A stretch of DNA of 32,000 nucleotides, taken from contig JAZPYX010000030.1 in the NCBI GenBank assembly GCA_045544395.1, forward strand, positions 11,386 to 43,385, written 5' to 3'. Source of the stretch: Clostridia bacterium. GTDB taxonomy: Bacteria; Bacillota; Clostridia; UMGS1883. The notes beneath the pieces were generated by a model. It was not told the origin of the DNA, ran no database searches, and was given only the letters and a program-made list of their open reading frames with translations. Both the position numbers and the translations under genes were made by a program. This document shows, in pieces, positions 7,577 through 27,489 of this stretch (its first letter is position 1; the number at the start of each line of letters is the position of its first letter).

Positions 7577-7586
7577 CTTGTGAAAA

Positions 7587-8162: not shown

Positions 8163-8221
8163 AAAACAAATCCTTTCACGCCATGATAGCGCTCATTAAA
8201 ATATTATTGTATCTACTTCTT

Positions 8222-8250: not shown

Positions 8251-8307
8251 GCTACATAGAAAATGCCAGGTTAAACTGTATAATAAGTTGGACGGTGCAA
8301 ATTAATG

Positions 8308-8336
8308 TTGACTAACAAATAAATTTATATTATAAT
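8308..8336 (+). promoter_or_regulatory. candidate promoter of the 22-gene polysaccharide operon
   Basis: TTGACT, a 17-nt spacer, then TATAAT (a perfect -10). It lies about 58 nt upstream of the first ATG at 8394. I see no other strong promoter or any terminator inside the locus. Confidence 0.7.
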
Positions 8337-8393
8337 ATAGAAGTGTCTTTGTGCGCATAATTATGAAAAAACTCGAAAGAGGGTACTGATAAA

Positions 8394-11474: not shown

Positions 11475-11477
11475 CAT

Positions 11478-12521: not shown

Positions 12522-12548
12522 GCTTTTTAATGCGATGAGGAATCGGTA

Positions 12549-13487: not shown

Positions 13488-13542
13488 TGGTTTAAAAAAT
13501 GATGGTTCGCAGTTTGAAGTAAACTGTAGAAGGAGGATAAAA

Positions 13543-14442
13543 ATGAATCGAGGTAAAGTATCAGTAATAATACCGACATACAAGGGTGACGATAATGTAG
13601 CCAGAGCGGTAGAGAGTGTTTTGAACCAGACCTACAATGATATTGAGATATTCGTGGTTGACGATAATGGAAGAGGAACAGAAAAGCAGTTGGCGACTGA
13701 AAATGCACTCAGAAGCTACATTGATGAAGGAAAGATTACATATCTTATTCATGAAAAGAATATCAACGGCTCTGCGGCAAGAAATACCGGAGCCCGTGCA
13801 TCTTCAGGAGAATTTATTTGTTTTCTTGATGATGATGATGAGTATTTGCCTAAGAACGTAGAAAATCATATAAAGCGTTTCAGAGAATTGTCGGAGGATT
13901 ACGGAATTACCCATTGTGCAATAAAGAGATTCTATGAGTATAACCGTCAGGAAATAATTTCTCCGACCCATGAAGGAGAGGCTCTTTTGGATTTTATGTG
14001 TGGAAAAGTTAAGATGGGTTCCAGTTGTATTATGGTAAGAAGAAGTGCTTATGAAAGCGTAAACGGATTTGATGAAACTTTCCGACGCCATCAGGATTGG
14101 GAATTTTCCGCAAGAATATTACGCAACTACAAAGTAGCTATGGTAAATGAAGTAGGACTTAACAAATATCAGCTTTACAGAAATAGTGCAAAAAATCCTG
14201 AGCAATATGAAAAAAACAGGTTGTACTATCTTGAAAGAATGGCGTTTATTATAGATTCTTTTGATAAAAAGGACAGAAATAAGATTTTCAATGCACATTA
14301 TCAGCAGATAGCAATAGATTATTTTAAGGCGAAAAAGTTTGGAAAGTGTATTAAATGGACGATGAAAACAACCAACCCCGTAAAGTGTTGGGGAACAATA
14401 TTTATGGATGCAATGAGATTTATAAAAAGAAAGTATATGTAA
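13543..14442 (+). CDS. family 2 glycosyltransferase
   Basis: VSVIIPTYKG, IFVVDDNGRG and FLDDDDEY (DxD). Strong GGAGG RBS. Confidence 0.85.
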   Translation: MNRGKVSVIIPTYKGDDNVARAVESVLNQTYNDIEIFVVDDNGRGTEKQLATENALRSYIDEGKITYLIHEKNINGSAARNTGARASSGEFICFLDDDDEYLPKNVENHIKRFRELSEDYGITHCAIKRFYEYNRQEIISPTHEGEALLDFMCGKVKMGSSCIMVRRSAYESVNGFDETFRRHQDWEFSARILRNYKVAMVNEVGLNKYQLYRNSAKNPEQYEKNRLYYLERMAFIIDSFDKKDRNKIFNAHYQQIAIDYFKAKKFGKCIKWTMKTTNPVKCWGTIFMDAMRFIKRKYM

Positions 14443-14465
14443 ATATCCCGAAGGAGCTTTGTTGA

Positions 14466-15737
14466 ATGGACAGGCAGGAGCAAAGGACAAAAAAAGAATA
14501 TTTGACATCGTTTATAGTGGCGTATGTAATAGCTATTAAAGGTATGAATCAGCTGATAGGAGCTATTTTAGGTCGGACTAACGGTATAATGATGATTAGC
14601 TTGATTTTTGTATCAGGTTTGCTTGTGTTGCATTTTTTCATATCAGACAAGAATGAAAACCTTAATTTGAATAAAAAGTCTTTGCTTTTTGTTTACTATA
14701 TCGTAAGTGTAATTGTTGTGTATAAGTATGCGTATAAATACGGAAGTGCTTCTTATGAAGAACTCTTTGTTTTTGTGTTGATTCCGATTTATCTTTCTTT
14801 TTATAAAATTGATGTTGAACAAGTTCTTAAATATCTTACTTTTTTATCTGTTCTGATATTACCTTTTTCAGGGATGTTTTTCAAGAGTACAGCAACAATA
14901 GCTTTTGAAACTATCGGCATGACGGCAAGTTACAATACACTTATTTTTGTGGTTGCTGCTGCACTTCACTTTTGGTACTACAGAAAAAATGCGGGATTTT
15001 TGATGTGGGTAGGATATTTGGCAAATATTTATTATTTGATAAAGATTTTAACTTTGGGAAACCGTGGTGTGTTTGTTTCAATTGCTGTCTTTTTGGTACT
15101 TTTACTTCTTCATGATACTGATAAAAACGGAAAAATAAATAAAAATAATTACAAAAAAGTATTGATTACCCTTGTTGTGGGAATTTTGGTTATATATGTT
15201 GTTAATAATTTTGAAGAAATATTAGGCGCGATAGATAAGTGGTTAAAGTCTATGGGAATGGAAATCAGTGCTATTTCCAAAAATGTACATAAGCTGGAAC
15301 AAGGCGATATTACCAACGGACGGCAAATTATTACGGAATTTACGAAAAAAGGAATAAAAGAAAAAATGCTTTTGGGTAACGGTATATCAACGATGTTGCA
15401 CAATAGCGGTTATACAATGGCATATCCGCATAATATTTTCTTGCAACTATGGTATGATTTGGGAATATTTGTATCTATACCGTTGTTTTGTTTGATTGCT
15501 AAAGCTACAATAAAAACTTTCTTTGATTCTTCTATTAGTAAAGAATATTCAGTTTTGCTGATTTTTTTGTATACTTTATCTATTCCAAGGTTATGTGTTT
15601 CATCACAATTGTGGGTAGATATATCGTTTTGGTTTTTGATGATGTATACAATTACTCCAAATCTCTACGAGAAGCATAATTACGGTGTATCGGACGACTT
15701 TGAAGAAAAGGAGCACTTGCGCGATGAAAGAAACTGA
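14466..15737 (+). CDS. wzy: repeat-unit polymerase (Wzy; O-antigen ligase/polymerase-like family)
   Basis: 423 aa with about 10-12 TM helices and a large loop in the C-terminal half. Contains the LGNRGVFVSIAVF segment typical of Wzy_C-type proteins. Low sequence complexity and AT-rich codons are usual for wzy. Confidence 0.7.
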   Translation: MDRQEQRTKKEYLTSFIVAYVIAIKGMNQLIGAILGRTNGIMMISLIFVSGLLVLHFFISDKNENLNLNKKSLLFVYYIVSVIVVYKYAYKYGSASYEELFVFVLIPIYLSFYKIDVEQVLKYLTFLSVLILPFSGMFFKSTATIAFETIGMTASYNTLIFVVAAALHFWYYRKNAGFLMWVGYLANIYYLIKILTLGNRGVFVSIAVFLVLLLLHDTDKNGKINKNNYKKVLITLVVGILVIYVVNNFEEILGAIDKWLKSMGMEISAISKNVHKLEQGDITNGRQIITEFTKKGIKEKMLLGNGISTMLHNSGYTMAYPHNIFLQLWYDLGIFVSIPLFCLIAKATIKTFFDSSISKEYSVLLIFLYTLSIPRLCVSSQLWVDISFWFLMMYTITPNLYEKHNYGVSDDFEEKEHLRDERN

Positions 15738-16803
15738 CAAAGTAAAGTTTGTTCATATAATTTTTAGAAACGAAGTGAAATTTGGAACTCGTGTAGTAAA
15801 GTTTCTTAATGAACAGGAAGAATATTTTGACTCTTCTCAACATCTTTTTGTTACACCTCATAAGCTTGCTTATGAGGCTGTAAAAGAATATTCCAATGTT
15901 GTTTTAGACGAAGAAAACGTAAACCTTATCAACAAGTATGCTCCAATGTGTAAGTGGATTATCTGTCATGGGCATTTTAATGCTGGTGATATACTTAACA
16001 TTAAAAATAAATATTTGCATAAGGTCATTTACAGATATTGGGGAGGGGGATTCGGCTTTCAGTATAAAAAAGGACAACTTATACAGAACCTTATGAAAAT
16101 CCCTGCCAATATTGAATTAAAGCGCAGATTTAATTCATTTGCAGCAATCGGTATTGCGAAAAATACAGATATTATTTCATTAAGTAAATATCTAAAATCA
16201 CAAAAGTACTATCGCATACCGTATACCGGTGTGGACAGTGAAAGTATTCTTGAAAGAGAACGCGATAGAGTATACGAAGATGATGGTATCCTAAATATTG
16301 CTCTTTATCACCGCGGAACAGTTGAAGGAAATCATATAGAAATCCTTAAAAAACTTGAACGTTTTGGGGGTAAGATTCGTGTATATGTTCCGCTTTCTTA
16401 CGGTGATGAAAAATATATAGAAAAAGTCAAGTCATACGTAAAAGACAACTCTCATGAAAACGTGATTATTGTGGATGAGTTCATGGAATATGAAGATTAT
16501 GTTGGTCTTATTAATCGTATGGATGTAGGTATATTTGACTGTACTACCTCTACAGCTCTCGGTAACGTTGCGGTTTATCTTTACCTCAAAAAGAAAATGA
16601 TTCTCAACCGTGAAGGCGTAATAAAAAAAGCTTTTGATGAAGAAAACATTCCTCATTGGTTTGTGGATGAACTCGATACAATTTCTATTGAACAACTAAA
16701 ACAAATGCCTGAATATCCTGAAGGTGTACATTATGATCTTATGCCTCTGGGAAAAACAAGGTCAATAGAAGCATGGAAGAAGATTTTTAATGATTTTAAT
16801 TAA
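15724..16803 (+). CDS. GT56-like glycosyltransferase (WecF-like 4-acetamido-4,6-dideoxyhexosyl transferase)
   Basis: 359 aa from the ATG at 15724, which is the length I recall for E. coli WecF. Block resemblance to WecF: CHGHFN..(x)..YRYWGGGFG corresponds to FHGQFN...HIWGADLY. IRVYVPLSYGD.KYIEKVK corresponds to VKVVVPMGYP...YIEEVR. YEDYVGLINRMDVGIF corresponds to FDAYLALLRQCDLGYF. LNRE is shared. AAGGAG RBS 10 nt upstream. Overlaps the wzy 3' end by 14 nt. Confidence 0.6.
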   Translation: MKETDKVKFVHIIFRNEVKFGTRVVKFLNEQEEYFDSSQHLFVTPHKLAYEAVKEYSNVVLDEENVNLINKYAPMCKWIICHGHFNAGDILNIKNKYLHKVIYRYWGGGFGFQYKKGQLIQNLMKIPANIELKRRFNSFAAIGIAKNTDIISLSKYLKSQKYYRIPYTGVDSESILERERDRVYEDDGILNIALYHRGTVEGNHIEILKKLERFGGKIRVYVPLSYGDEKYIEKVKSYVKDNSHENVIIVDEFMEYEDYVGLINRMDVGIFDCTTSTALGNVAVYLYLKKKMILNREGVIKKAFDEENIPHWFVDELDTISIEQLKQMPEYPEGVHYDLMPLGKTRSIEAWKKIFNDFN

Positions 16804-16817: not shown

Positions 16818-18266
16818 ATGGATAGTAAAAAGGTTTTAACAAATTTAATATGGCGTTTCCTGGAAAGAAGCGGTGCGCAGATAGTAAGCTTTGTTGTGTC
16901 AATCATTCTCGCGAGACTTTTATGCCCTGAAGATTATGGGGTTATTGCTCTTGTAACTGTTTTTATCACGGTGTTACAGACTTTTGTGGACAGCGGTTTC
17001 GGTAATGCGCTGATTCAGAAAAAAGATGCAGACGATGTGGATTTTTCGTCGGTATTTTATTTTAATATAACTTCCTGTGCAGTGCTGTATCTTATAATGT
17101 TTTTTGCGGCACCGTATATTGCAAAATTTTATAAAATTCCTCAACTTACAGCTATTGTTCGTGTTATAAGTCTTAAACTTGTTATTTCCGGACTTAAAAA
17201 TGTGCAGCAGGCATATGTATCAAAGCAGATGATGTTTAAAAAGTTTTTCTTTGCAACGCTTATAGGCACTGTAGGGGCGGCAATAGTTGGTATTGCAATG
17301 GCATATTGTGGATTTGGAGTATGGGCACTTGTAGCACAGCAGCTTTTTAACTTGTTTGTAGATACTGCTATTTTATGGTTTGTAGTTAAGTGGAGACCCA
17401 AGAGAGTATTTTCTTTTAAACGGCTTAAGGGACTTCTTTCTTATGGATGGAAATTACTTGCTGTATCACTTATGAATAATCTGTATAATGAATGCCGCCA
17501 GCTTGTAATCGGTAAGGTGTATACCCCTGCGTCTCTTGCAATTTACAATAAAGGCAGACAATTCCCTGATTTGTTTGTAAATAATATAAACACTTCGATA
17601 GACAGCGTGCTTCTTCCTGCATTGTCCCGTGAGCAAGATAATGCAAGCAATGTTAAAGCAATGACAAGACGTGCAATAAGAATCAGTAGCTTCATTATGG
17701 CTCCGTTTATGGTTGGACTTGCTTTAGTGGCAAAACCGCTTATATTGCTGCTTCTGACAGAAAAATGGGTAGAATGCGTGCCGTTTATGGTTGTTTTTTG
17801 TGTTTCGTTTTTGTTCAAACCTATTAATACGGCAAACCTTAACGCAATAAAGGCTATGGGAAGAAGTGATTTGTTTCTAAAAATAGATATCCTGAAAATT
17901 ATAGTTGGTATTATAACACTTGTCATTGCACTTCCTTACGGAACGTTTGCAATTGCAATAGGATTTCTTGCTGCTACAATTATAGGAATGATTATAAATG
18001 TCTTTCCTAATAAGAGTATGCTTGGTTACGGTTATATTGAACAGATTAAGGATTTACTTAATCCGATTATCCCGATTGCGGTAATGGTTATTACAACTTA
18101 TGCGGTAGGCCTTTTAAAACTTTCTCCGCTTCCGATGCTTTGTATACAAGTAACTGTGGGAATAGTTTCTTACATATCAACTTCGGCACTTACTAAAAAT
18201 GAATCTTTCCGCTATGCTTTGAATATGATGAAAAATCTTTTTAAAAAAAGAGGTAAACAAAAATGA
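16818..18266 (+). CDS. wzx: Wzx flippase (MOP/PST-family polysaccharide transporter)
   Basis: 482 aa with about 14 TM helices. The N-terminal NLIWRFLERSGAQIVSFVVSIILARLL...YGV and GFGNALIQ blocks are typical of PST-family flippases. Confidence 0.85.
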   Translation: MDSKKVLTNLIWRFLERSGAQIVSFVVSIILARLLCPEDYGVIALVTVFITVLQTFVDSGFGNALIQKKDADDVDFSSVFYFNITSCAVLYLIMFFAAPYIAKFYKIPQLTAIVRVISLKLVISGLKNVQQAYVSKQMMFKKFFFATLIGTVGAAIVGIAMAYCGFGVWALVAQQLFNLFVDTAILWFVVKWRPKRVFSFKRLKGLLSYGWKLLAVSLMNNLYNECRQLVIGKVYTPASLAIYNKGRQFPDLFVNNINTSIDSVLLPALSREQDNASNVKAMTRRAIRISSFIMAPFMVGLALVAKPLILLLLTEKWVECVPFMVVFCVSFLFKPINTANLNAIKAMGRSDLFLKIDILKIIVGIITLVIALPYGTFAIAIGFLAATIIGMIINVFPNKSMLGYGYIEQIKDLLNPIIPIAVMVITTYAVGLLKLSPLPMLCIQVTVGIVSYISTSALTKNESFRYALNMMKNLFKKRGKQK

Positions 18267-19462
18267 AAAAACTTATGATTCTGGGCGGCGCAAGATATAT
18301 ACTTCCAGTAATTGAAAAAGCAAAAAGAATGGGAATATACGTAATAACTTGTGACTATTTGCCTGATAATGTGGCACATAAATATTCCGATGAATATATA
18401 AATATAAGTATTGTTGATAAGGATGTTGTGCTTGACGGTGCGAAAAAAGCGAATATTGACGGTATTATGTCTTTCGCTTGTGACCCCGGAGTGGCGACTG
18501 CTGCCTATGTTGCTGAAAAAATGGGACTTCCCTTTGCAGGAAGTTATGAGGCAGTTTCAATACTTCAAAACAAAGACAAATTCCGTGCATTCCTTGAAAA
18601 GAATGGTTTTACAGTGCCTGCGTCAGGCGGTTACAGAACGCTTGAAGAGGCTCTCGGTGACCTTGATAAATTTACTTTCCCTGTGATTGTAAAACCTGTT
18701 GATTCTGCGGGAAGTAAGGGTGTAAGTCGTGTTGTCGATAAAAAAGATTTGGCTCCTTCCGTGGAATTTGCCCTTAAATATTCAATTGACGGCAGGTTTA
18801 TTATAGAGGACTTTATTGAAAAGAAAGGATTTTCGTCAGATTCAGACAGCTTTACTGTTGACGGAAAGTTCAGTTTTCTTTCATTTTCAGACCAAAGATT
18901 TGACGAAAATGCATCAAACCCCTATACGCCTGCAGCGTATAGCTGGCCTCCTACTATGGAGGAAGGCGCACAGAAAGAACTTGCTGATGAGCTTCAGCGT
19001 CTTGCTAAATTGCTTGACCTCAAAACTTCAGTATATAATATAGAAACCCGAGTAGGTACAAACGGCAAACCATATATAATGGAAGTTTCTCCCCGCGGTG
19101 GCGGAAACAGACTTTCGGAAATGTTATATCACGTAACAGACGTTGACCTTATAGAAAATGCAGTGCGTGCAGCAGTAGGTGAGCCTTTGGTGGATATGTG
19201 TCAGAAACCATATAATGGGTATCTTGCAGAAATCATTCTCCATAGTGAAAAAGAAGGTATTTTTAAAGAATTGTGGATCAACGAAGAAATAAAGGAAAAT
19301 GTTCTGGAAGAAGATTTGTGGGTGAAAGACGGTGACGGTGTCAGCGGATTTTCAGGCGCAAATGAAGCAATAGGTACGCTTGTTCTTAAGTTCGACAATC
19401 GTGAAATGATGGAAAAAGTACTTAAAAATCAGGATAATTATGTTAAAGTAGTTTTGAAATAA
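18263..19462 (+). CDS. ATP-grasp domain ligase, substrate unknown
   Basis: 399 aa. A pre-ATP-grasp Rossmann-like N-terminus (KKLMILGG) is followed by FPVIVKPVDSAGSKGV (phosphate loop), IIEDFIE and IMEVSPRGGGN (Mg-ATP site). ATGA-type overlap with wzx. Confidence 0.75.
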   Translation: MKKLMILGGARYILPVIEKAKRMGIYVITCDYLPDNVAHKYSDEYINISIVDKDVVLDGAKKANIDGIMSFACDPGVATAAYVAEKMGLPFAGSYEAVSILQNKDKFRAFLEKNGFTVPASGGYRTLEEALGDLDKFTFPVIVKPVDSAGSKGVSRVVDKKDLAPSVEFALKYSIDGRFIIEDFIEKKGFSSDSDSFTVDGKFSFLSFSDQRFDENASNPYTPAAYSWPPTMEEGAQKELADELQRLAKLLDLKTSVYNIETRVGTNGKPYIMEVSPRGGGNRLSEMLYHVTDVDLIENAVRAAVGEPLVDMCQKPYNGYLAEIILHSEKEGIFKELWINEEIKENVLEEDLWVKDGDGVSGFSGANEAIGTLVLKFDNREMMEKVLKNQDNYVKVVLK

Positions 19463-19472
19463 AGGTGAAATT

Positions 19473-20417
19473 ATGTGGGAAATCGGCGGATATATTGAAC
19501 TTGATACATACAATCTTCCAATGCTTCATGGAGAAGCGGTACTTCTTAACTCGGGAAGAAATGCTCTTGCCTATCTTATAAGAGCCAAGAAAATTGAAAA
19601 GATATATATTCCGAAATTTCTTTGTGATTCTGTAAGAAATGTATGTAAAAGAGAAAACATTAAAATAGAATACTATTCTGTTGGAATAAATTTTCTTCCC
19701 AAAGATTTACCCGAAACTATTGACGGATGGCTTTATATCGTAAATTATTACGGACAGATTAGTAATAACAAAATAAGAGAAATTGTTGTTAAATATAAAA
19801 ATGTTATTGTGGACAATGCACAAAGCTATTTTCAGATGCCGGTAGAAGGTGTTGATACCTTATACACCTGCCGTAAATTTTTTGGTGTGGCAGACGGTGC
19901 AATACTGTATACTGATAGATACATCGAATGCCTTGAAACAGATGAATCATTTTCAAGAATGAATTTTCTGCTTGGCAGATTTGAACGCACCGCATCTGAG
20001 TTTTATTCGGAATATGTAGCAAATAATGACTTTTTTGAAAATGAAGAAGTTAAGAAAATGTCAAAGCTGACGTATAATCTTTTACATGGTATTGACTATG
20101 AAAAAGTAAAAAAGCAGCGAACAGAAAACTTTTTAGTTTTACATAATGCTTTGAAAAATATAAATAAACTTTCACCAACTGTTCCCGACGGTGCATTTAT
20201 GTATCCGTTATATGTAGAAAATGGTGCAAAAATAAGAAAAGAACTTCAAAAGGAAAAAATTTATATTCCTACATTATGGGCAGATACGTTTGATGTTTGT
20301 GAAAAAGATGATATTCAGTGTGATATGGCAGAAAATATATTGCCACTTCCCTGTGACCAAAGATATGAAGATGCAGATATGTATCGAATTGTAGATTACA
20401 TTAAAAAGTATTTATAA
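19473..20417 (+). CDS. short, divergent DegT/DnrJ/EryC1-like (fold-type I PLP) protein, function unknown
   Basis: 314 aa. NSGRNALAYLIRA...IYIPKFLCDSV, VDNAQSYF (in place of DAAQA) and TCRKFFGVADGAILYT (in place of SFxxxKxxxxGEGG, with the lysine retained) follow the DegT order. The protein is about 50-60 aa shorter than canonical members. Confidence 0.45.
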   Translation: MWEIGGYIELDTYNLPMLHGEAVLLNSGRNALAYLIRAKKIEKIYIPKFLCDSVRNVCKRENIKIEYYSVGINFLPKDLPETIDGWLYIVNYYGQISNNKIREIVVKYKNVIVDNAQSYFQMPVEGVDTLYTCRKFFGVADGAILYTDRYIECLETDESFSRMNFLLGRFERTASEFYSEYVANNDFFENEEVKKMSKLTYNLLHGIDYEKVKKQRTENFLVLHNALKNINKLSPTVPDGAFMYPLYVENGAKIRKELQKEKIYIPTLWADTFDVCEKDDIQCDMAENILPLPCDQRYEDADMYRIVDYIKKYL

Positions 20418-20431
20418 CTAGGAGGAAGAAA

Positions 20432-21733
20432 ATGTATAATCTTGAAGGTAAAAAATTGATGGTTATGGACAGAACGGCTCTTGCGGCTTGTGCAGTAAAA
20501 AGAGCGAAAGAGCTTGGTGTAAAAACTATTGTAGCAAACTTTTATCCCACAGAAGAGTCTCCGTCTAAGCAGATTGCTGATGAAACTGTTGATATTGACA
20601 TTTCAAAAACAGATGAAATGCTCGCCCTTATTAAAGAAAGAGGCGTAGACGGAATTTTTGTGGGATGGACAGATTCGCACCTTCCTTTTTATGCAGACAT
20701 ATGTGAAAAGGCAGGTCTTCCTTGTTGTGGAACAAAAGAACAGTTTGACATTCTTTCCAATGATAAACGCAGATTCAAGGAAGTTGGCTTGAAATATGGT
20801 GTTCCCACCATTCCCGAATATAAGCTGGACATTAACTTAAAAAGGGAAGATCTTGATAAGATTGAATATCCCGTACTTGTAAAGCCTGCTGACGAAAGTG
20901 GTAGCCGCGGAATCAAGCGTTGTGATAATGAAGAAGATTTGGTTGAATATTACAAGGCTTTGTACGAACATTCCAAGAGTAAGAAAATTTTATGTGAAAA
21001 ATATATGGGAGATTGTAAAGAAATTTTCCTCCACTATACAATTCAGGACGGATATTGCAGCTTGTCCTCAACCTTTATGAAACAGAAAGCTGTTACAGAA
21101 GGTTCCGTAGCTTCTTCAGCGATTCTGCACGTATTCCCAACATCTTATGTTGACTTGTACAGAAAAACAACCGAGCCTGCAGTAATTAAACTTATAGAAG
21201 GTCTGGGTATTAAGAACGGCATTGTTATGTTTCAGGGGTTTATAGATGGCGACAAATTCTGCTTCTTTGAATCAGGACTCAGAATGGGTGGTGAGCAGTT
21301 CTATGTATTTGCTGCCCCCTTGAACGGTATCAACGCTTTAGATATGATGATTGAATTTTCATTAACGGGCAAGATGACTTGCGGTGATGCAAAAACTCAA
21401 GACAATCCCAATTTCTCAAAAAGCTGTGTAAACTATTATATCACATTAAAACCCGGAACAATTACAAAGATTAAAGGACTTGAAGAAGTTGAAGCAATGC
21501 CCCAGGTTCTGCAGAATGCAACCTTCCATAAAATAGGCGATACTATTCAAAAAACAAATGCATTGGACCGAGTTATTTATCGTCTGCATGTAATGGATGA
21601 TACAAAAGAAAAATTGGCAGAAACACTTTGTAAAATCAGTCATACATTGCAGGTGCTTGATGAAAACGGTAACGATATGCAGATTGAGTGTCTGACTTAT
21701 GAGAGAGCGTACGAGATGCTTGCAAATTCTTAA
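20432..21733 (+). CDS. ATP-grasp domain ligase, substrate unknown (paralogous architecture to 18263-19462)
   Basis: 433 aa. KKLMVMD N-terminus, YPVLVKPADESGSRGI phosphate loop, LCEKYM and FFESGLRMGGE. AGGAGG RBS. Confidence 0.75.
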   Translation: MYNLEGKKLMVMDRTALAACAVKRAKELGVKTIVANFYPTEESPSKQIADETVDIDISKTDEMLALIKERGVDGIFVGWTDSHLPFYADICEKAGLPCCGTKEQFDILSNDKRRFKEVGLKYGVPTIPEYKLDINLKREDLDKIEYPVLVKPADESGSRGIKRCDNEEDLVEYYKALYEHSKSKKILCEKYMGDCKEIFLHYTIQDGYCSLSSTFMKQKAVTEGSVASSAILHVFPTSYVDLYRKTTEPAVIKLIEGLGIKNGIVMFQGFIDGDKFCFFESGLRMGGEQFYVFAAPLNGINALDMMIEFSLTGKMTCGDAKTQDNPNFSKSCVNYYITLKPGTITKIKGLEEVEAMPQVLQNATFHKIGDTIQKTNALDRVIYRLHVMDDTKEKLAETLCKISHTLQVLDENGNDMQIECLTYERAYEMLANS

Positions 21734-21802
21734 AAGTAAGGAATATGATATTGCTTAACTGTAATAAAATGTTGTAAGTATATAATAACAGAGGTGTTTT
21801 AA

Positions 21803-22720
21803 TTGACAAAAGTATTGGTTTTAATGGGCGGAATTTCAACTGAGAGAGAGGTTTCCCTTCGCAGCGGTAAAGCCGTGGCAGAGGCTCTTTTTGAAAAAGG
21901 TTACGAAGTAAAAACTCTTGATATAACGAAAGAAACTATAGGTGAAATACAGGAAATTAATCCTGATGTGGTGTTCCTTGCACTTCACGGAAAGTACGGT
22001 GAAGACGGATGTATTCAAGGTATGCTTGAATGGATGGGGTATCCCTATACAGGCCCCGGTGTTGCATCAAGTGCAATCTGTATGGATAAAATTCTTACAA
22101 AGAAGATTCTTGTTAATCACAATATTCCGACACCGAAGTTTATGGAATTTAAATCTTTTAACAGTAGCATAAAAGAAACTATTCTTAAAAACTTTTCTTT
22201 GCCGGTTGTGCTTAAGGCGTGCTGTCAGGGTTCGAGCATCGGTGTCAGCATTGTAAATAACGAACAGCAGCTTGAGAAAGAAATCGAAGATACATTAAAA
22301 TACGGAGATAAGCTCCTTGTTGAGGAATTTGTTAAAGGAATTGAACTTACCGTTCCCATTATTGGTAATGAGAGCTACCGTGCACTTCCAATAATTGAAA
22401 TTACCTCAGAAAATGAATTCTACGATTATGAGTCAAAGTACACTCAGGGTATGTGTCAGCACATTATCCCTGCAAGAATTGATGAAGCTACATATAAAGC
22501 TGTTGAAAAAGCGGCACTCGATGCCTACGGTGCAACTGAATGCCGAGGATTTTCAAGAGTTGATGTAATCATTGATGAAAACAATAATCCTTATGTTATT
22601 GAAATAAATACTATTCCCGGAATGACATCTATGAGTCTTTTCCCGGATTCTGCACGCTATGCAGGAATAGAATTCCCCGAATTATTAGACGAAATAGTAA
22701 AACTCGCTCTTAAGAAATAA
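21803..22720 (+). CDS. ddl: D-alanine--D-alanine ligase
   Basis: 305 aa. KVLVLMGGISTEREVSLRSG, ALHGKYGEDG.IQG.LE, PVVLKA...GSS.GV, FYDYESKY (omega-loop Tyr retained, so D-Ala-D-Ala type) and EINTIPGMT. TTG start with GAGGTG 6 nt upstream. The first in-frame ATG would delete the conserved N-terminal strand. Confidence 0.9.
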   Translation: MTKVLVLMGGISTEREVSLRSGKAVAEALFEKGYEVKTLDITKETIGEIQEINPDVVFLALHGKYGEDGCIQGMLEWMGYPYTGPGVASSAICMDKILTKKILVNHNIPTPKFMEFKSFNSSIKETILKNFSLPVVLKACCQGSSIGVSIVNNEQQLEKEIEDTLKYGDKLLVEEFVKGIELTVPIIGNESYRALPIIEITSENEFYDYESKYTQGMCQHIIPARIDEATYKAVEKAALDAYGATECRGFSRVDVIIDENNNPYVIEINTIPGMTSMSLFPDSARYAGIEFPELLDEIVKLALKK

Positions 22721-22721: not shown

Positions 22722-23822
22722 GTGAAAGTTTTGAACGAAAGAATAAACGTTACACGCTCCAGCATGCCCTCTTTTGAAGAATACTGCGAGGCGATAAGAC
22801 CAATATTTGAATCAAGATGGCTTACCAACGCAGGTCCCGTACATAATGACTTTGCAGAAAAAGTAAAGGGGTACTTAGGCGCAGAAAACATTTCTCTTTT
22901 TACAAATGGGCATCTTGCCCTTTGCATTGCACTCCGTGCATTAGGACTTACGGGTGAAGTTATTACGACACCGTTTACCTTTGCATCTACAACCCACGCA
23001 ATAGTTGACGCAGGTCTCGTACCCGTGTTCTGCGATGTGAATCCGGATACATATACTATTGATGCAGATAAAATAGAAGCATTAATTACTGATAAAACAA
23101 GTGCGATTATGCCTGTTCACGTGTATGGAAACGTGTGTGATGTGGAAAAGATAGATGCTATTGCAAAAAAGCACAATCTTAAAGTTATCTACGATGCAGC
23201 TCATGTTTTCGGCGTCAAAGTAGGTGACAAGGGAATCGGTACTTTTGGTGATGTCAGTATGTTCAGCTTCCATGCAACAAAGGTGTTTAACACCATTGAG
23301 GGCGGATGTCTTACATACAGTGACAAATCACTTGAAGCAAGGATTAATTCCCTTCGTAACTTTGGTTTAACAGGCCCCGAAAGTGTGGATATGCTTGGAA
23401 CGAATGCCAAAATGAATGAGTTTCAGGCGGCAATGGGACTTTGTAATCTTAAATATATTGACGGAGAACTTCAGAAAAGAGCTATTGCAGAAAACCGTTA
23501 CCGTGAAAGACTCTCGGGTATAGACGGTATAAAACTTTCCCCCATTCAGGAGGGAGTGGAACATAACCACGCATATTTCCCCGTCCAGTTTGACGGATAT
23601 AAATATAACCGTGATGAGGTAGCGGACAAGCTTTCGGCAGAAAATATTTTTGCAAGAAAGTATTTCTACCCCATTACAAACGAATTTTCCTGCTATAAGG
23701 ACAAGTTCAGGGGTGAAACACCGATAGCAAAGCATATTTCGGAAAATGTACTTACACTTCCGATGTATGCAGACCTCTCCGCAGAAGATGTAGACAGAAT
23801 ATGTGATATTATTTTGAAATAA
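22722..23822 (+). CDS. DegT/DnrJ/EryC1-family nucleotide-sugar aminotransferase (likely dTDP-4-keto-6-deoxyhexose 4-aminotransferase)
   Basis: 366 aa. TTPFTFASTTHAI, PVHVYG, YDAAHVFG and SFHATK (PLP lysine). The start is ambiguous: GTG at 22722, 1 nt after the ddl stop, or TTG at 22731, 6 nt after AAGGTG. Confidence 0.85.
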   Translation: MKVLNERINVTRSSMPSFEEYCEAIRPIFESRWLTNAGPVHNDFAEKVKGYLGAENISLFTNGHLALCIALRALGLTGEVITTPFTFASTTHAIVDAGLVPVFCDVNPDTYTIDADKIEALITDKTSAIMPVHVYGNVCDVEKIDAIAKKHNLKVIYDAAHVFGVKVGDKGIGTFGDVSMFSFHATKVFNTIEGGCLTYSDKSLEARINSLRNFGLTGPESVDMLGTNAKMNEFQAAMGLCNLKYIDGELQKRAIAENRYRERLSGIDGIKLSPIQEGVEHNHAYFPVQFDGYKYNRDEVADKLSAENIFARKYFYPITNEFSCYKDKFRGETPIAKHISENVLTLPMYADLSAEDVDRICDIILK

Positions 23823-23834
23823 AGGAACGTGAAA

Positions 23835-24710
23835 ATGATGAAAGGTATAATCTTGGCAGGCGGTAAAGGAACCCGTCTTTATCCTATGACAAAGGCAGTG
23901 TCAAAACAGCTTCTTCCTATTTACGACAAACCCCTTATATACTATCCTCTTTCAACTCTGCTTCTTGCAGGTATAAGAGAAATTCTTATAATTTCTACTC
24001 CCGAGGATACCCCTGTTTACGAAAAACTTCTGGGCACAGGCGAAAAGCTTGGTATCAGCATTACATACAAAGTACAGGATAGCCCCCGTGGACTTGCAGA
24101 TGCCTTTATCCTTGGTGAAGAATTTATAGGGGATGACAGTGTGTGTCTTGTTCTTGGTGACAATGTTTTCTACGGACAGAATTTCACAAAGATTTTACGC
24201 TCTGCTATGGAAAATAACACCGGTGCAACAATTTTCGGTTACCCTGTAAACGATCCCAGGGCATTCGGTGTAGTTGAATTTGACAAGGATTTCAACGTAG
24301 TATCAATAGAAGAAAAGCCTGAAAATCCCAAGTCAAAATATGCTGTTCCCGGACTTTATTTCTACGATAACAACGTTATTGAAATTGCGAAGAATGTTAA
24401 ACCCTCTGCCCGTGGCGAAATTGAAATCACTGCAGTGAATAACGAGTATCTCCGCCGCGGTAATCTTAAGGTTAGACTTTTTAATCGTGGTATGGCGTGG
24501 CTTGATACAGGTTCCCCGTCGGGTATGCTTCAGGCAAGTCAGTTTGTGCAGACAGTGCAGACTGTTCAGGGTATGTATATTTCCTGTATAGAGGAAATTG
24601 CATATCGCAGAGGTTTTATCACAATAGAGCAGCTTCGTAAAATTGGAGAAGAGCTTAAAATGACAGAATACGGACAGTATCTTCTCTCAATATACAAGGA
24701 GGAAAAGTAA
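23835..24710 (+). CDS. rfbA: glucose-1-phosphate thymidylyltransferase
   Basis: [37 protein letters not shown] and YFYD. About 291 aa. I prefer the ATG at 23835 (AAGGA 8 nt upstream) to the GTG at 23829. Confidence 0.95.
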
Positions 24711-25729
24711 TGAAAATTCTTGTTACAGGCGGTGCCGGATTTATCGGCAGTAACTTTATATACTTTATGCTTAAAAAGCATCCCGGATATAAAATTGTGT
24801 GCCTCGATGCACTTACTTATGCAGGCAATCTTGAAACCCTTGAGGACGCAATGAAAAACCCTGACTTCAAGTTTGTAAAGGGTGATATTACAGATCGCGA
24901 TGCAGTAAAAAAGCTTTTCGGGGAAGAAAAGTTTGATATTGTAGTAAACTTTGCGGCAGAAAGCCACGTTGACAGAAGTATTGAAGAGCCGGAAGTTTTT
25001 CTTAAAACAAACATTCTCGGTACACAGGTACTTATGGATGCGTCAAAGGAATTTGGTGTAAAGAGGTATCATCAGGTGTCAACTGACGAGGTGTACGGAG
25101 ACCTTCCACTTGACCGTCCCGACCTTTTCTTTACAGAGGAAACACCTATTCATACATCAAGTCCCTACTCTGCTTCAAAGGCAGCGGCAGACCTTCTTGT
25201 GCAGGCATATCACAGAACTTACGGTCTTCCCGTTACAATTTCAAGATGCTCAAATAACTACGGACCCTATCATTTTCCGGAAAAGCTTATTCCTCTTATG
25301 ATAGCAAACGCTCTTGCCGATAAGGCTCTTCCCGTTTACGGTGAAGGTCTTAATATCCGTGACTGGCTTTATGTGGAAGATCATTGCAGTGCCATTGACC
25401 TTATTATCCACAACGGAAAAGTTGGTGAGGTTTATAACATTGGCGGTCATAATGAAAAAGCAAATATTGATGTTGTAAAGCTCATTCTTAAAGAGCTTGG
25501 AAAACCCGAAAGCCTCATTACTTATGTAACTGACAGAAAGGGTCACGATATGCGTTACGCAATTGACCCTGCAAAAATTCATCGTGAGCTTGGCTGGCTT
25601 CCGGCTACAAAGTTTGACGACGGTATAAAACTTACAATTAAGTGGTATCTTGAAAATAAGCCCTGGTGGGAGAATATCATCAGTGGCGAATATAAAGACT
25701 ACTACAAAAAGATGTACGAGGGAAGATAA
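24710..25729 (+). CDS. rfbB: dTDP-glucose 4,6-dehydratase
   Basis: ILVTGGAGFIGSNF, NFAAESHVDRS, STDEVYG and PYSASKAAADLL (YxxxK). 339 aa. Its start overlaps the rfbA stop. Confidence 0.95.
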   Translation: MKILVTGGAGFIGSNFIYFMLKKHPGYKIVCLDALTYAGNLETLEDAMKNPDFKFVKGDITDRDAVKKLFGEEKFDIVVNFAAESHVDRSIEEPEVFLKTNILGTQVLMDASKEFGVKRYHQVSTDEVYGDLPLDRPDLFFTEETPIHTSSPYSASKAAADLLVQAYHRTYGLPVTISRCSNNYGPYHFPEKLIPLMIANALADKALPVYGEGLNIRDWLYVEDHCSAIDLIIHNGKVGEVYNIGGHNEKANIDVVKLILKELGKPESLITYVTDRKGHDMRYAIDPAKIHRELGWLPATKFDDGIKLTIKWYLENKPWWENIISGEYKDYYKKMYEGR

Positions 25730-26247
25730 TGAAAAAGATTATAATAATAGGTGCCGGAACATTTTCGACAGTTGTTATTGATTCAATTCTCGAAAATTCG
25801 TTTTACGCAGATTATACTATAGAAGGATTTTTGGATGACGGGCAGATTTGTGACGGCAATTTTGACTATCCTCTTCTGGGAAAAATTGATGAAGCGGAAA
25901 AATTTAATGACAAGGAGACTTTCTTTGCATTGGCAATCGGTTCTCCTGCGACCCGTCAAGCCATAGCGGAAAAACATCCGTATCTTAATTATCTGACGGT
26001 TATTGACAAATCGGCTAATATAAGTAAATACGCAACTATCGGCAAAGGATGTGTTATTATGAAGAACGCATCCATTAACACGCTGGTAAGGGTGGACGAT
26101 TTTGCTATAGTAAATACAGGTGCAATTGTTGACCATCATGTGAAGGTGGGACGCTATTGCCACGTAGGACAAGGCGTTGTGCTCTGGCATAGTGCACAGA
26201 TAAAGGAAGGGGAACATCTTTTCCCGGGAACAGTAATAAAGGGTTGA
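25729..26247 (+). CDS. NeuD/PglD-type left-handed beta-helix N-acetyltransferase (short C-terminus)
   Basis: 172 aa. An N-terminal Rossmann-like KKIIIIGAGTF...FFALAIGS is followed by LbH repeats and a DHH segment at the position of the PglD catalytic His. The protein ends about 25 aa earlier than PglD/NeuD as I recall them. Confidence 0.7.
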   Translation: MKKIIIIGAGTFSTVVIDSILENSFYADYTIEGFLDDGQICDGNFDYPLLGKIDEAEKFNDKETFFALAIGSPATRQAIAEKHPYLNYLTVIDKSANISKYATIGKGCVIMKNASINTLVRVDDFAIVNTGAIVDHHVKVGRYCHVGQGVVLWHSAQIKEGEHLFPGTVIKG

Positions 26248-27472: not shown

Positions 27473-27489
27473 CAAAGGAAAATGAAATT

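What the first reader, a model, noticed from the sequence alone, without database searches (positions are those of the whole stretch)
18263..22720. ATP-grasp / short DegT-like / ATP-grasp / Ddl block inside the polysaccharide operon: candidate amide or peptide decoration module
**Seen in the sequence.** Four consecutive co-directional genes sit between wzx and the dTDP-sugar genes.
- The 399-aa and 433-aa proteins share one architecture and carry ATP-grasp hallmarks: the phosphate loops FPVIVKPVDSAGSKGV and YPVLVKPADESGSRGI, and the Mg-ATP sites EVSPRGGGN and ESGLRMGGE.
- Neither looks like a housekeeping ATP-grasp enzyme I can name (PurK, PurT, CarB, AccC or Ddl).
- Between them is a 314-aa protein that follows the DegT/EryC1 motif order with the lysine retained, but it is clearly shorter and more divergent than sugar aminotransferases.
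- The fourth gene is a canonical Ddl.

**Established knowledge.**
- ATP-dependent amidoligases, working with PLP enzymes that make the amine, install amide decorations on capsule glucuronate in Campylobacter jejuni HS:2.
- Many O-antigens carry amino acids or dipeptides amide-linked to GalA or GlcA carboxyls, or to the 4-amino group of Qui4N/Fuc4N. The enzymology is mostly unassigned.

**Inference.** This locus makes both acceptor types: uronic acids and a 4-amino-4,6-dideoxyhexose. The block is therefore a plausible, largely uncharacterised system that builds and attaches an amino acid, an amine, or a short D-Ala-containing peptide to the repeat unit.
Basis: partly seen in the sequence, partly recalled or inferred. 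Interest (0 to 1): 0.75.

Follow-up and report, generated by a model that had tools for sequence, protein, structure and literature searches.

The report
Amino-acid decoration cassette for capsule sugar
Four adjacent genes in a gut Clostridia capsule operon most likely hang an amino acid or short D-alanine-containing peptide on a 4-amino-deoxy sugar; the odd 314-residue protein belongs to a large unnamed vitamin-B6 enzyme family that, in E. coli O-antigens of known structure, is present with a D-alanyl decoration and absent with a glycyl one.

Summary
Four co-directional genes encode two ATP-grasp ligases (AG1, AG2), a 314-aa protein (X314) and a canonical Ddl. AG1 folds like L-amino-acid ligases. 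X314 has no Pfam, NCBIfam or PDB sequence match, but it is a divergent DegT-fold PLP enzyme with the Lys/Asp pair invariant.

In 80 species genomes, X314 sits with:
- an AG1-like ligase in 71 (WbqC-like instead in 6);
- a DesI/VioA-like 4-aminotransferase in 62;
- a related Wzx in 60;
- Ugd in 5;
- Ddl in 0.

A GNAT or a second ATP-grasp usually follows X314, and is sometimes fused to it. The acceptor is therefore probably dTDP-4-amino-4,6-dideoxyhexose, not a uronic acid.

E. coli O121 makes Qui4N-GlyAc with DegT-WbqC-GNAT and has no X314. O123/O186 makes Qui4N-(3-hydroxybutanoyl-D-Ala) with DegT-WbqC-X314-GNAT-MaoC.

Best reading: AG1 aminoacylates the sugar amine, X314 acts on that residue (most likely Cα epimerisation to D), and AG2 with Ddl extends it.

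This is a new variant of a known decoration type, and its enzymology is unassigned.

The parts
15685..16803 (+). GT56 (WecF-like) glycosyltransferase; the likely transferase for the dTDP-4-acylamino-4,6-dideoxyhexose
   Evidence: Pfam Glyco_transf_56 scores 55 bits against a cut-off of 25. The best NCBIfam hit is TDP-N-acetylfucosamine:lipid II transferase, 106 bits, below its cut-off. A homologue (43% id) lies directly upstream of Wzx in L090, and weaker ones (24-32% id) in 4 of the 80 loci. The GTG start overlaps wzy, so the true start may lie further downstream.
16818..18266 (+). Wzx flippase that travels with the cassette
   Evidence: Polysacc_synt_3 at 1e-103. A homologue (37-60% id) lies within 6 genes of X314 in 60 of 80 loci, usually directly upstream of the ATP-grasp. 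It is 34-36% identical to the wzx of E. coli O123/O186 and of pLAU-OXA3.
18263..19462 (+). AG1: ATP-grasp ligase with an L-amino-acid-ligase-like fold; proposed aminoacyl:dTDP-4-amino-sugar ligase
   Evidence: Only generic ATP-grasp Pfam hits. AlphaFold pLDDT 90. The nearest solved structures are 4DIM (unassigned structural-genomics target) and then the L-amino-acid ligases BL00235, YwfE/BacD and RizA, with TM 0.76-0.84. An AG1-like gene lies immediately upstream of X314 in 60 of 80 loci.
19473..20417 (+). X314: divergent short DegT-fold PLP enzyme from an unnamed family; proposed to act on the attached aminoacyl residue, with Cα epimerisation favoured
   Evidence: No Pfam, NCBIfam or PDB sequence hit. 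Foldseek matches DegT aminotransferases at E 1e-12. hhalign to DegT gives probability 96%. D114 and K135 are 100% conserved in 135 diverse representatives. The family has 5,780 clusters at 50% identity. There are natural fusions to GNAT and to ATP-grasp. An E. coli O123/O186 homologue is 34% identical, E 5e-58.
20432..21733 (+). AG2: second ATP-grasp ligase (LAL_C2-like C-terminus); proposed to acylate or extend the free α-amine
   Evidence: Generic ATP-grasp hits, plus LAL_C2 at 25.9 bits, below its cut-off. AG2-like genes occur in 39 of 80 loci. They occupy the same slot after X314 that a GNAT occupies in about 21 other loci. An X314-ATP-grasp fusion exists (P0296).
21803..22720 (+). Ddl, D-alanine--D-alanine ligase; probable supplier of a D-Ala dipeptide building block in this lineage
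   Evidence: NF002378 scores 387 bits against a cut-off of 243. In three close relatives (Ddl 95% id) it stays directly upstream of DegT2 while the genes between wzx and ddl are replaced. It also lies in the cps locus of L003, at a different position. It is absent from the other 80 loci.
22722..23822 (+). DegT2: DesI/VioA-like dTDP-4-keto-6-deoxyglucose 4-aminotransferase; makes the acceptor amine
   Evidence: Pfam DegT at 3e-98. The best solved relative is DesI, 2PO3, at 3.5e-69. It is 43-46% identical to the DegT of the E. coli O121 and O123/O186 Qui4N clusters. It is present in 62 of 80 X314 loci, and in 51 of 59 with full flanks.
23829..24710 (+). RmlA, glucose-1-phosphate thymidylyltransferase
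   Evidence: Translation. Homologues at 55-91% identity follow DegT2 in many loci. The gene called at this position in the related loci L003, L090 and L091 carries the NTP_transferase Pfam.
24710..25729 (+). RmlB, dTDP-glucose 4,6-dehydratase
   Evidence: Translation. Homologues at 55-92% identity occur in the related loci.
25729..26247 (+). NeuD/PglD/VioB-family N-acyltransferase; uncertain member, which could cap an amine of this sugar or acetylate the bacillosamine-type sugar of the same locus
   Evidence: TIGR03570 scores 130 bits against a cut-off of 161, and PglD_N scores 53 bits. The same position after RmlB is conserved in L090 and L091.

Best explanation
The block is the tailoring part of a portable cassette. 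The cassette builds, transfers and flips one unusual sugar: a 4-amino-4,6-dideoxyhexose, probably D-Qui4N, whose 4-amino group carries an amino acid or short peptide.

Proposed steps:
1. RmlA and RmlB make dTDP-4-keto-6-deoxyglucose. The DesI/VioA-like DegT2 makes dTDP-4-amino-4,6-dideoxyglucose. This rests on homology to characterised enzymes.
2. AG1, an L-amino-acid-ligase-like ATP-grasp enzyme, activates an amino-acid carboxylate as an acyl phosphate and forms an amide with the sugar 4-amine. This is inferred.
3. X314, a divergent DegT-fold PLP enzyme, forms an aldimine with the free α-amine of the attached residue and changes it. The most likely change is Cα epimerisation from L to D. This is inferred.
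4. AG2 acylates that α-amine with a further carboxylate, plausibly D-Ala or the D-Ala-D-Ala made by the adjacent Ddl. In other genomes a GNAT does this instead, with acetyl or hydroxyacyl. Capping removes the amine and would pull an epimerase equilibrium. This is inferred.
5. The WecF-like GT56 transfers the sugar, and the co-inherited Wzx flips the repeat unit. This is inferred.

Sub-confidences:
- Acceptor is the 4-amino sugar and AG1 aminoacylates it: about 0.7.
- X314 acts on the amino-acid moiety rather than making a sugar amine: about 0.6.
- X314 is specifically an epimerase acting after ligation: about 0.35.
- Ddl is a dedicated part of the module: about 0.65.
For: Neighbourhood census of 80 species-representative loci. 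AG1-like is present in 71 and lies immediately upstream of X314 in 60. DegT2 is in 62 (51 of 59 with full flanks), Wzx in 60, AG2 in 39, Ugd in only 5 and Ddl in 0.

- AG1 can be replaced. In 6 loci the gene upstream of X314 is instead a WbqC-like protein (PF08889).
- The gene after X314 is a GNAT in about 21 loci or an ATP-grasp in about 30.
- Three X314-GNAT fusions and one X314-ATP-grasp fusion exist.
- The AG1 fold is nearest to L-amino-acid ligases.
- X314 has a DegT fold with invariant Asp and Lys.

Anchoring to known chemistry:
- E. coli O121 has rfbB-rfbA-DegT-WbqC-GNAT, with no X314. Its sugar is Qui4N carrying N-acetylglycine.
- The E. coli O123/O186-family cluster has DegT-WbqC-X314 homologue-GNAT-MaoC. 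[quoted passage not shown]

Other support:
- The GT upstream of wzx is WecF-like.
- In close relatives a single ATP-grasp plus Ddl replaces AG1-X314-AG2 next to a 91-95% identical DegT2. The segment is therefore a swappable decoration unit, with Ddl stably attached.
- An E. coli plasmid carries an analogous cassette with a non-homologous fold-type II PLP enzyme. That fold is not used for sugar transamination.
Against: - There is no biochemical or structural-chemistry evidence for this organism. The polysaccharide is unknown.
- The X314-D-amino-acid link rests on only two E. coli clusters, and these also differ in the cap.
- Bacteria already have a free D-Ala pool, so a ligase could take D-Ala directly.
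- Retention of Lys and Asp fits an aminotransferase equally well.
- The downstream GNAT is most similar to PseH, a nucleotide-sugar amine acetyltransferase. That would fit X314 making a sugar amine.
- The window also encodes Ugd, a UDP-GlcA-epimerase-like enzyme and a GlcA C5-epimerase-like protein, so uronic-acid acceptors are available.
- A VioB/PglD-like acetyltransferase follows RmlB and might simply acetylate the 4-amine.
- X314 shows only weak co-variation with AG1 (Spearman 0.20).
- The roles given to AG2 and Ddl are guesses based on position.
Confidence: 0.55

Rival explanations
1. The pathway is the same, but X314 works on free substrate. It would be a dedicated racemase or a D-specific transaminase that supplies a D-amino acid, and AG1 (or WbqC) then ligates that D-amino acid to the sugar amine.
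For: The O121 versus O123 contrast fits this reading equally well. X314 lacks the first ~55 residues of canonical DegT enzymes and has several family-invariant arginines, which could bind a small carboxylate. An archaeal copy of the cassette exists. I did not establish whether that archaeon has a free D-Ala pool.
Against: X314 is fused to the capping GNAT or ATP-grasp, not to the first ligase, which suggests consecutive steps. A free-alanine racemase would duplicate Alr in bacteria. AG1 is closest to ligases for L-amino acids. X314 was seen only in 4-amino-sugar loci.
Confidence: 0.2
2. X314 is a second nucleotide-sugar aminotransferase. It would make a second amino group or a second amino sugar, for example the 4-epimer. 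The GNAT or AG2 would acylate that amine, while AG1 acylates the amine made by DegT2.
For: The DegT fold retains the full PLP core. Aminotransferase-then-N-acetyltransferase is the canonical pairing, and the GNAT is PseH-like. The fusions with the GNAT fit this.
Against: The cassette has no conserved dehydrogenase or ketoisomerase to create a second keto position. E. coli O123 has only one amino group on its Qui4N, yet carries X314. O121 makes the same amino sugar without it. On an E. coli plasmid a fold-type II PLP enzyme takes this position.
Confidence: 0.1
3. This is the Campylobacter HS:2-type logic proposed by the first reader. X314 would make a small amine, for example by decarboxylation or transamination of a phosphorylated precursor. 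AG1 and AG2 would then amidate GlcA, GalA or IdoA carboxyls of the polymer.
For: Ugd, a UDP-GlcA 4-epimerase-like gene and a C5-epimerase-like gene are in the same operon. The Campylobacter precedent of an ATP-dependent amidoligase working with PLP enzymes is documented.
Against: Ugd lies near X314 in only 5 of 80 loci, against 62 of 80 for the VioA-like aminotransferase. The E. coli O121 and O123 products put the amino acid on Qui4N. The self-contained Methanococcus cassette RmlA-RmlB-Wzx-AG1-X314-GNAT-DegT-GT2 contains no Ugd gene; the nearest one is three genes downstream on the opposite strand.
Confidence: 0.08
4. Ddl is simply the housekeeping peptidoglycan enzyme that happens to sit in this locus, and is not part of the module. 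AG2 would add a single amino acid.
For: It is a fully canonical Ddl by NCBIfam. It is absent from the other 80 cassettes. I could not check for a second ddl in the genome.
Against: It is translationally packed between AG2 and DegT2. It keeps that position in relatives whose upstream ligase genes have been swapped. It sits elsewhere within the cps locus of L003, at 66% identity.
Confidence: 0.3

Closest known systems
[quoted passage not shown]
   Same: Both have rfbB/rfbA, wzx, a VioA-like DegT (45% id), an X314 homologue (34% id, full length) and a downstream N-capping enzyme. The inferred product type is the same: an N-acyl-aminoacyl group on Qui4N.
   Different: The first ligase there is WbqC-like, not an ATP-grasp. 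The cap there is GNAT plus MaoC (hydroxybutanoyl); here it is a second ATP-grasp plus Ddl. The E. coli enzymes themselves are unassigned: X314 is annotated 'hypothetical protein', and a 2025 paper states that the pathway transferring alanine to a deoxyhexose is unknown.
E. coli O121 / Shigella dysenteriae type 7 Qui4N(N-acetylglycyl) genes (DegT-WbqC-GNAT)
   Same: It has the same acceptor pathway and the same ligase-then-cap logic.
   Different: It has no X314 and no ATP-grasp, and its amino acid is achiral glycine. This contrast is the basis for assigning X314 a role tied to the chiral residue.
L-amino-acid ligases (BacD/YwfE, BL00235, RizA)
   Same: AG1 shares their three-domain ATP-grasp fold with the extra C-terminal domain (TM 0.76-0.84). 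AG2 has a weak LAL_C2 hit.
   Different: Identity is only 16-20%. The proposed amine acceptor is a nucleotide sugar rather than a second amino acid. No specificity residues were tested.
DegT/DnrJ/EryC1/StrS sugar aminotransferases (DesI, DesV, ArnB, PseC, WecE)
   Same: X314 has the same fold and the same PLP Lys/Asp positions, phosphate loop and C-terminal domain.
   Different: X314 is too divergent for the Pfam model. It lacks the first ~55 residues, has its own invariant N-terminal GG motif, a 160-190 insertion and a DQRY motif. It always co-occurs with a bona fide DegT, so it is not the sugar 4-aminotransferase.
Campylobacter jejuni HS:2 glucuronamide system (Cj1438 amidoligase with PLP enzymes Cj1436 and Cj1437)
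   Same: It also uses an ATP-dependent amide ligase together with DegT-type PLP enzymes inside a capsule locus (and my own knowledge).
   Different: There the carboxylate belongs to GlcA, and the PLP enzymes make the free amine. Here the neighbourhood data point to a sugar amine as acceptor and to a PLP enzyme acting on the amino-acid part.
Isopenicillin N epimerase CefD (recalled from memory, not tested)
   Same: It is a PLP enzyme that epimerises the α-carbon of an aminoacyl side chain already amide-linked to a larger scaffold. This is the kind of chemistry proposed for X314.
   Different: It belongs to a different PLP subfamily and has a different substrate. It is an analogy only.

Membership tests
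ATP-grasp superfamily (AG1, AG2) | ATP-grasp fold with a phosphate-binding loop and Mg-ATP-binding acidic/Asn residues | tested here: met
   Pfam ATP-grasp_4/ATP-grasp_3/CPSase_L_D2 hits are above cut-off. The motifs are present. The AG1 model superposes on ATP-grasp structures at E 1e-34 to 1e-22.
Housekeeping ATP-grasp enzymes (PurK, PurT, CarB, AccC, Ddl) for AG1/AG2 | Score at or above the NCBIfam equivalog cut-off | tested here: not met
   The best scores are 30-82 bits against cut-offs of 240-1000.
L-amino-acid ligases (AG1) | LAL-type architecture, including the C-terminal domains | tested here: inconclusive
   LALs are the closest characterised structures (3VOT TM 0.82, YwfE 0.84), but identity is 16-20%. 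LAL_C2 was detected only weakly, and only in AG2 and some AG1 homologues.
L-amino-acid ligases (AG1) | ATP-dependent ligation of an amino-acid carboxylate to an amine | not testable with these tools
   This needs an enzyme assay.
DegT/DnrJ/EryC1/StrS family (X314) | Match to the family profile (PF01041) | tested here: not met
   There is no Pfam or NCBIfam hit at E <= 0.01.
DegT/DnrJ/EryC1/StrS family (X314) | Fold type I sugar-aminotransferase fold with the Schiff-base Lys and the pyridine-N Asp | tested here: met
   Foldseek top 50 are all DegT-family or closely related fold-type-I sugar-aminotransferase entries, at E 1e-12 to 1e-9. hhalign probability is 96%, with K135 and D114 on the catalytic positions. 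Both residues are 100% conserved.
DegT/DnrJ/EryC1/StrS family (X314) | Keto-sugar nucleotide transaminase activity | not testable with these tools
   Context argues against it: a canonical DegT is always also present, and O121 makes Qui4N without X314.
D-alanine--D-alanine ligase (fourth gene) | Score above the NCBIfam subfamily cut-off, with both Ddl N-terminal and C-terminal domains | tested here: met
   NF002378 scores 387 bits (cut-off 243) and TIGR01205 scores 332 (cut-off 246). Dala_Dala_lig_N and Dala_Dala_lig_C are both present.
Qui4N N-aminoacyl decoration cassette (E. coli O123/O121 type) | RmlA/RmlB plus a VioA-like 4-aminotransferase in the locus | tested here: met
   Window genes 22722-25729. 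DegT2 is 43-46% identical to the E. coli O121 and O123 DegT, and DesI is its best PDB hit.
Qui4N N-aminoacyl decoration cassette (E. coli O123/O121 type) | A WbqC-family protein as the presumed aminoacyl ligase | tested here: not met
   There is no WbqC in the window. An ATP-grasp occupies that position, as in 60 of 80 related loci, while WbqC occupies it in 6.
Qui4N N-aminoacyl decoration cassette (E. coli O123/O121 type) | The product carries an amino acid amide-linked to N4 of Qui4N | not testable with these tools
   This needs NMR/MS of the polysaccharide.
Campylobacter HS:2-type glucuronamide system | Co-occurrence of the ligase/PLP pair with UDP-glucose dehydrogenase and a uronic-acid acceptor | tested here: not met
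   Ugd lies within 6 genes of X314 in 5 of 80 loci. The compact Methanococcus cassette itself contains no Ugd gene; one lies three genes downstream on the opposite strand.

The most novel reading that the evidence does not exclude
X314 founds a new class of PLP-dependent epimerases. The class works on an aminoacyl residue already amide-linked to a nucleotide sugar, converting L to D in situ. A D-specific N-capping enzyme (GNAT or ATP-grasp, sometimes fused to X314) then traps the product. This would explain how D-amino acids enter O-antigens and capsules without free D-amino-acid pools. It would also make this window's product a Qui4N carrying a D-amino-acid/D-Ala-D-Ala peptide, a peptidoglycan-stem mimic displayed on a gut commensal capsule.
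Probability: 0.3. Interest if true: 0.8.

Novelty: new variant of a known kind. Interest (0 to 1): 0.62.

Why it matters
Amino-acid and peptide substituents on 4-amino and 3-amino deoxy sugars are common serotype determinants in O-antigens and capsules. Aminoacyl sugars also serve as the attachment point for type IX secretion cargo in Prevotella. Yet a 2025 paper states that the pathway transferring alanine to a deoxyhexose is unknown.

This analysis gives concrete candidates for every step: an ATP-grasp or WbqC ligase, the X314 PLP enzyme, and a GNAT or ATP-grasp cap. It defines an unnamed PLP family of about 5,800 clusters at 50% identity. The cassette is mobile across Bacillota, Pseudomonadota, PVC bacteria and even Methanococcus.

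It also offers a genetically tractable test bed in E. coli O123 versus O121. For gut Clostridia, it predicts capsules decorated with D-amino-acid peptides. Such groups could matter for immune recognition and for phage or antibody specificity.

Tried and rejected
- Sequence searches of X314 against Pfam, NCBIfam and PDB gave nothing. Only fold and profile-profile comparison placed it in the DegT family.
- P0001, the window's own X314 sequence, had no contig on record.
- Literature searches for 'ATP-grasp' with viosamine, for AglU and for MMP1084 found nothing. Two papers could not be opened.
- I suspected that the Methanococcus homologue might be AglU, the factor for threonine attachment. Its context is instead the same RmlA-RmlB-Wzx-AG1-X314-GNAT-DegT cassette, so no link to AglU could be made.
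- A DNA search of E. coli genomes with the Proteus WbqC-X314 region found nothing. The E. coli clusters were reached through the DegT gene instead.
- DNA searches with the O121 wbqC and the O123 X314 found only their own serogroups. No third chemically defined test case was obtained.
- Mirror-tree co-variation of X314 with AG1, DegT2 and Wzx was weak (rho 0.03-0.20). It therefore gives no evidence for a specific physical partnership.
- The uronic-acid amide reading and the 'second sugar aminotransferase' reading were considered and down-weighted. The reasons are given under the rival explanations.

Full report
**Observation.** The window carries a long + strand polysaccharide operon (8394-30846). 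Downstream of wzx (16818-18266) lie four tightly packed ORFs:
- 18263-19462, 399 aa, called AG1 here;
- 19473-20417, 314 aa, called X314;
- 20432-21733, 433 aa, called AG2;
- 21803-22720, 305 aa, Ddl.

They are followed by a DegT aminotransferase, RmlA and RmlB. No convincing terminator and no opposite-strand gene interrupts the block.

**The individual proteins.**
- AG1 and AG2 match only generic ATP-grasp Pfam models. They fall far below every NCBIfam equivalog cut-off for PurK, PurT, CarB, AccC and Ddl. They are 30% identical over their N-terminal halves.
- The best PDB sequence hit for both is 4DIM, an unassigned structural-genomics protein. For AG1 an L-amino-acid ligase comes next; for AG2 biotin-carboxylase domains come next and the L-amino-acid ligase 3VOT ranks lower.
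- An AlphaFold model of AG1 (pLDDT 90) superposes best on 4DIM, then on the L-amino-acid ligases BL00235, YwfE/BacD and RizA, with TM 0.76-0.84.
- The fourth protein is a standard D-Ala-D-Ala ligase: NF002378 scores 387 bits against a cut-off of 243.
- X314 has no Pfam, NCBIfam or PDB sequence match. Its model (pLDDT 87) matches DegT/DnrJ/EryC1 sugar aminotransferases (Foldseek E 1e-12).
- A profile-profile alignment of 135 diverse X314 relatives against DegT proteins gives probability 96% and E 3e-9. It aligns X314 residues 21-312 with DegT2 residues 56-366.
- D114 and K135, at the PLP Asp and Lys positions, are 100% conserved. Other family-specific invariants include G5-G6, R29, C51, R134, R169, R216 and D295-Q-R-Y298.
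- X314 lacks the first ~55 residues of canonical DegT enzymes.

**The family and its neighbourhood.** X314 belongs to a large unnamed family. There are 5,734 hits in the 90%-clustered database, all about 314 aa and labelled 'hypothetical' where a source names them. At 50% identity there are 5,780 clusters with E <= 1e-3, and 1,302 with E <= 1e-30.

A scan of species-representative genomes found 204 carriers. These include Oscillospiraceae, Ruminococcus, Lachnospiraceae, Blautia, Faecalibacterium, Granulicatella, Negativicutes, Victivallales and Thermoguttaceae. Further homologues occur in Proteus, Photobacterium, Bacillaceae and Methanococcus maripaludis.

I called ORFs in the 80 retained loci and compared them with the window's proteins. 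Within six same-strand genes of X314:

| Neighbour | Loci (of 80) |
|---|---|
| AG1-like ATP-grasp | 71 (immediately upstream in 60) |
| DegT2 orthologue, 47-63% id | 62 (51 of 59 with full flanks) |
| Wzx homologue | 60 |
| AG2-like ligase | 39 |
| RmlA / RmlB | 17 / 18 |
| Ugd | 5 |
| Ddl | 0 |

- In six loci the gene upstream of X314 is not an ATP-grasp but a WbqC-family protein (PF08889).
- The gene downstream is a GNAT in about 21 loci and an ATP-grasp in about 30. It is occasionally an LbH acyltransferase with MaoC and HpcH-like genes, an SDR, or DegT2 directly.
- Natural fusions exist: X314-GNAT in three clusters and X314-ATP-grasp in one.
- A GT2 lies directly upstream of wzx in 29 of 59 loci, and a GT56 in 4. 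In the window this gene is WecF-like.
- The Methanococcus locus is a compact RmlA-RmlB-Wzx-AG1-X314-GNAT-DegT-GT2.

The unit is therefore a portable cassette for making, transferring and flipping one modified sugar. Pairwise-identity correlations between its genes are weak (rho 0.02-0.20), so the modules are shuffled freely.

**Which acceptor.** DegT2's best solved relative is DesI, the dTDP-4-keto-6-deoxyglucose 4-aminotransferase (3.5e-69). DegT2 is 43-46% identical to the DegT of the E. coli O121 and O123/O186 clusters, whose O-antigens contain D-Qui4N. X314 is strongly linked to this aminotransferase and only weakly to Ugd. The acceptor is therefore very probably the 4-amino group of a dTDP-4-amino-4,6-dideoxyhexose rather than a uronic-acid carboxyl.

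**Anchoring to known chemistry.** WbqC was named in E. coli O121.
- The O121 cluster reads rfbB-rfbA-DegT-WbqC-GNAT-wzx and has no X314. O121 carries N-acetylglycine on its Qui4N.
- The O123/O186-family cluster reads rfbB-rfbA-wzx-DegT-WbqC-'hypothetical protein'-GNAT-MaoC-GT2-wzy. The hypothetical protein is a full-length X314 homologue, 34% identical at E 5e-58.
[quoted passage not shown] 2010, cited in PMC7685785).

The gene contents map simply onto the products. DegT makes the amine, WbqC adds the amino acid, the GNAT (with MaoC) adds the cap, and X314 appears only where the residue is chiral and D-configured.

In the Firmicutes cassettes X314 occurs with plain GNATs or ATP-grasp caps and without MaoC. 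It is therefore tied to the amino acid, not to the hydroxybutanoyl group.

An E. coli plasmid, pLAU-OXA3, carries an analogous cassette: RmlB-RmlA-wzx-like-DegT-GNAT-PALP enzyme-PylC-like ATP-grasp-GT2. There a fold-type II PLP enzyme takes the PLP slot. That fold acts on amino acids, not on keto sugars.

A 2025 paper says explicitly that the pathway transferring alanine to a deoxyhexose is unknown.

**Mechanism proposed for the window.**
1. RmlA, RmlB and DegT2 give dTDP-4-amino-4,6-dideoxyglucose.
2. AG1, which is L-amino-acid-ligase-like, attaches an amino acid to N4.
3. X314 binds the free α-amine as a PLP aldimine and most likely epimerises Cα to D.
4. AG2 then acylates that amine, plausibly with D-Ala or the D-Ala-D-Ala made by Ddl.
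5. The GT56 transfers the sugar, and Wzx flips the unit.

Three points favour action after ligation:
- X314 is fused to the cap enzyme.
- AG1 has an L-amino-acid-ligase character.
- A free-alanine racemase would be redundant in bacteria.

None of these is decisive. A free-substrate racemase or D-transaminase remains a serious alternative, and a second sugar aminotransferase cannot be excluded.

**Ddl.** Ddl is absent from the other 80 loci. In three contigs from close relatives, Ddl is 95% identical and DegT2 91-95% identical to the window's. There the order is GT-Wzx-single 410-aa ATP-grasp-Ddl-DegT2-RmlA, with no X314. The 410-aa ligase is only 28% identical to AG1 and 24% to AG2.

The segment between wzx and ddl is therefore a swapped decoration unit, and Ddl is a stable neighbour of DegT2 in this lineage. 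In L003 a 66%-identical Ddl sits elsewhere in the cps locus. This favours a dedicated role for Ddl, at about 0.65. I could not check for a second ddl in the genome.

**Verdict.**
- The acceptor is most likely the 4-amino sugar.
- The PLP protein probably modifies or supplies the amino-acid residue rather than making the attached amine.
- The conserved unit is Wzx/ATP-grasp/X314/DegT with a variable cap, and Ddl is a lineage-specific addition.

It is a new variant of a known kind of decoration. Its enzymes, above all the X314 family, are unassigned.

Noticed in passing
window 12549-13487 (+): A 312-aa protein matches the C-terminal domain of D-glucuronyl C5-epimerase (PF06662, 1e-33). It sits inside the capsule operon next to Ugd and UDP-GlcA-epimerase-like genes, so the polysaccharide may contain iduronic acid made at polymer level.
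   Followed up: no
window 26252-28623 (+); also L003, L040, L090: An 'uncharacterised nucleotidyltransferase' (NTP_transf_5, 406 aa) and a galactokinase-like GHMP kinase lie next to Ugd and the epimerase. The kinase scores below all galactokinase cut-offs. The set recurs in related loci. It may be a sugar-1-kinase/nucleotidyltransferase salvage pair for an unusual sugar.
   Followed up: partly
L090 6745-8918, L091 6769-8942, L092 4903-7076: Close relatives have Ddl and DegT2 that are 91-95% identical to the window's. Between wzx and ddl they carry one 410-aa ATP-grasp instead of AG1-X314-AG2. This looks like a serotype-style cassette swap inside an otherwise conserved locus. The same loci also carry ATPgrasp_ST and ATPgrasp_TupA genes.
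   Followed up: partly
L089 (E. coli plasmid pLAU-OXA3, NZ_CP045280) 4525-13399: An IS-flanked plasmid cassette reads epimerase-RmlB-RmlA-wzx-like-DegT-GNAT-PALP (ACC deaminase/D-Cys desulfhydrase-like)-PylC-like ATP-grasp-GT2. Its logic is analogous to the window's block, but with a non-homologous PLP enzyme. It is mobile in Enterobacteria.
   Followed up: partly
L085 (Methanococcus maripaludis GCA_013761085) 5488-13672: The complete cassette RmlA-RmlB-Wzx-AG1-X314-GNAT-DegT-GT2 is present in an archaeon, with X314 47% identical to the Proteus protein. This implies transfer between domains. It may modify the archaeal N-glycan or the S-layer.
   Followed up: partly
P0278, P0303, P0335 (X314-GNAT); P0296 (X314-ATP-grasp): These are natural fusion proteins of X314 with the downstream capping enzyme. 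I did not check whether any is an assembly or frameshift artefact.
   Followed up: partly
L084 (Proteus mirabilis H63, NZ_OL790811) 11121-15963: Downstream of cpxRA the O-antigen locus reads DegT-GT2-WbqC-X314 (46% id)-SDR. The serogroup and structure were not identified. The record is a 4-Mb chromosome filed as a plasmid in PLSDB.
   Followed up: partly
Literature: PMC10404621, figure 2 legend: WbqC genes occur in operons with a tRNA-Pro-like gene, a ProRS paralogue, GT4, LmbE and MurG. This hints that WbqC might be an aminoacyl-tRNA-dependent transferase. If so, it would use L-amino acids and make a post-transfer epimerase necessary.
   Followed up: no
L079 10933-13011; L038, L066; L072 12244-13380 and five other loci: Other genes follow X314 in some loci. 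One set is a PglD/VioB-type LbH acyltransferase plus a MaoC hydratase plus an HpcH/citrate-lyase-like enzyme. Another is an ornithine cyclodeaminase/mu-crystallin protein. These suggest hydroxyacyl or opine-type caps on the same residue.
   Followed up: no
window 8394-10713 (+): The operon starts with a second, canonical DegT (PglE-like), a PglC-type phosphosugar transferase and a hexapeptide acyltransferase. This looks like a bacillosamine-type initiating sugar. I identified no UDP-GlcNAc 4,6-dehydratase among the window proteins I scanned; GT2 genes 10710-11474 and 13543-14442 were not scanned.
   Followed up: no
window 1433-3645 (-): A UDP-GlcNAc 2-epimerase and a GT4-family (WecA/TagO-like) transferase lie upstream on the opposite strand, beside the ATP synthase a and I subunit genes. 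They may form a linkage-unit pair for a wall polymer.
   Followed up: no
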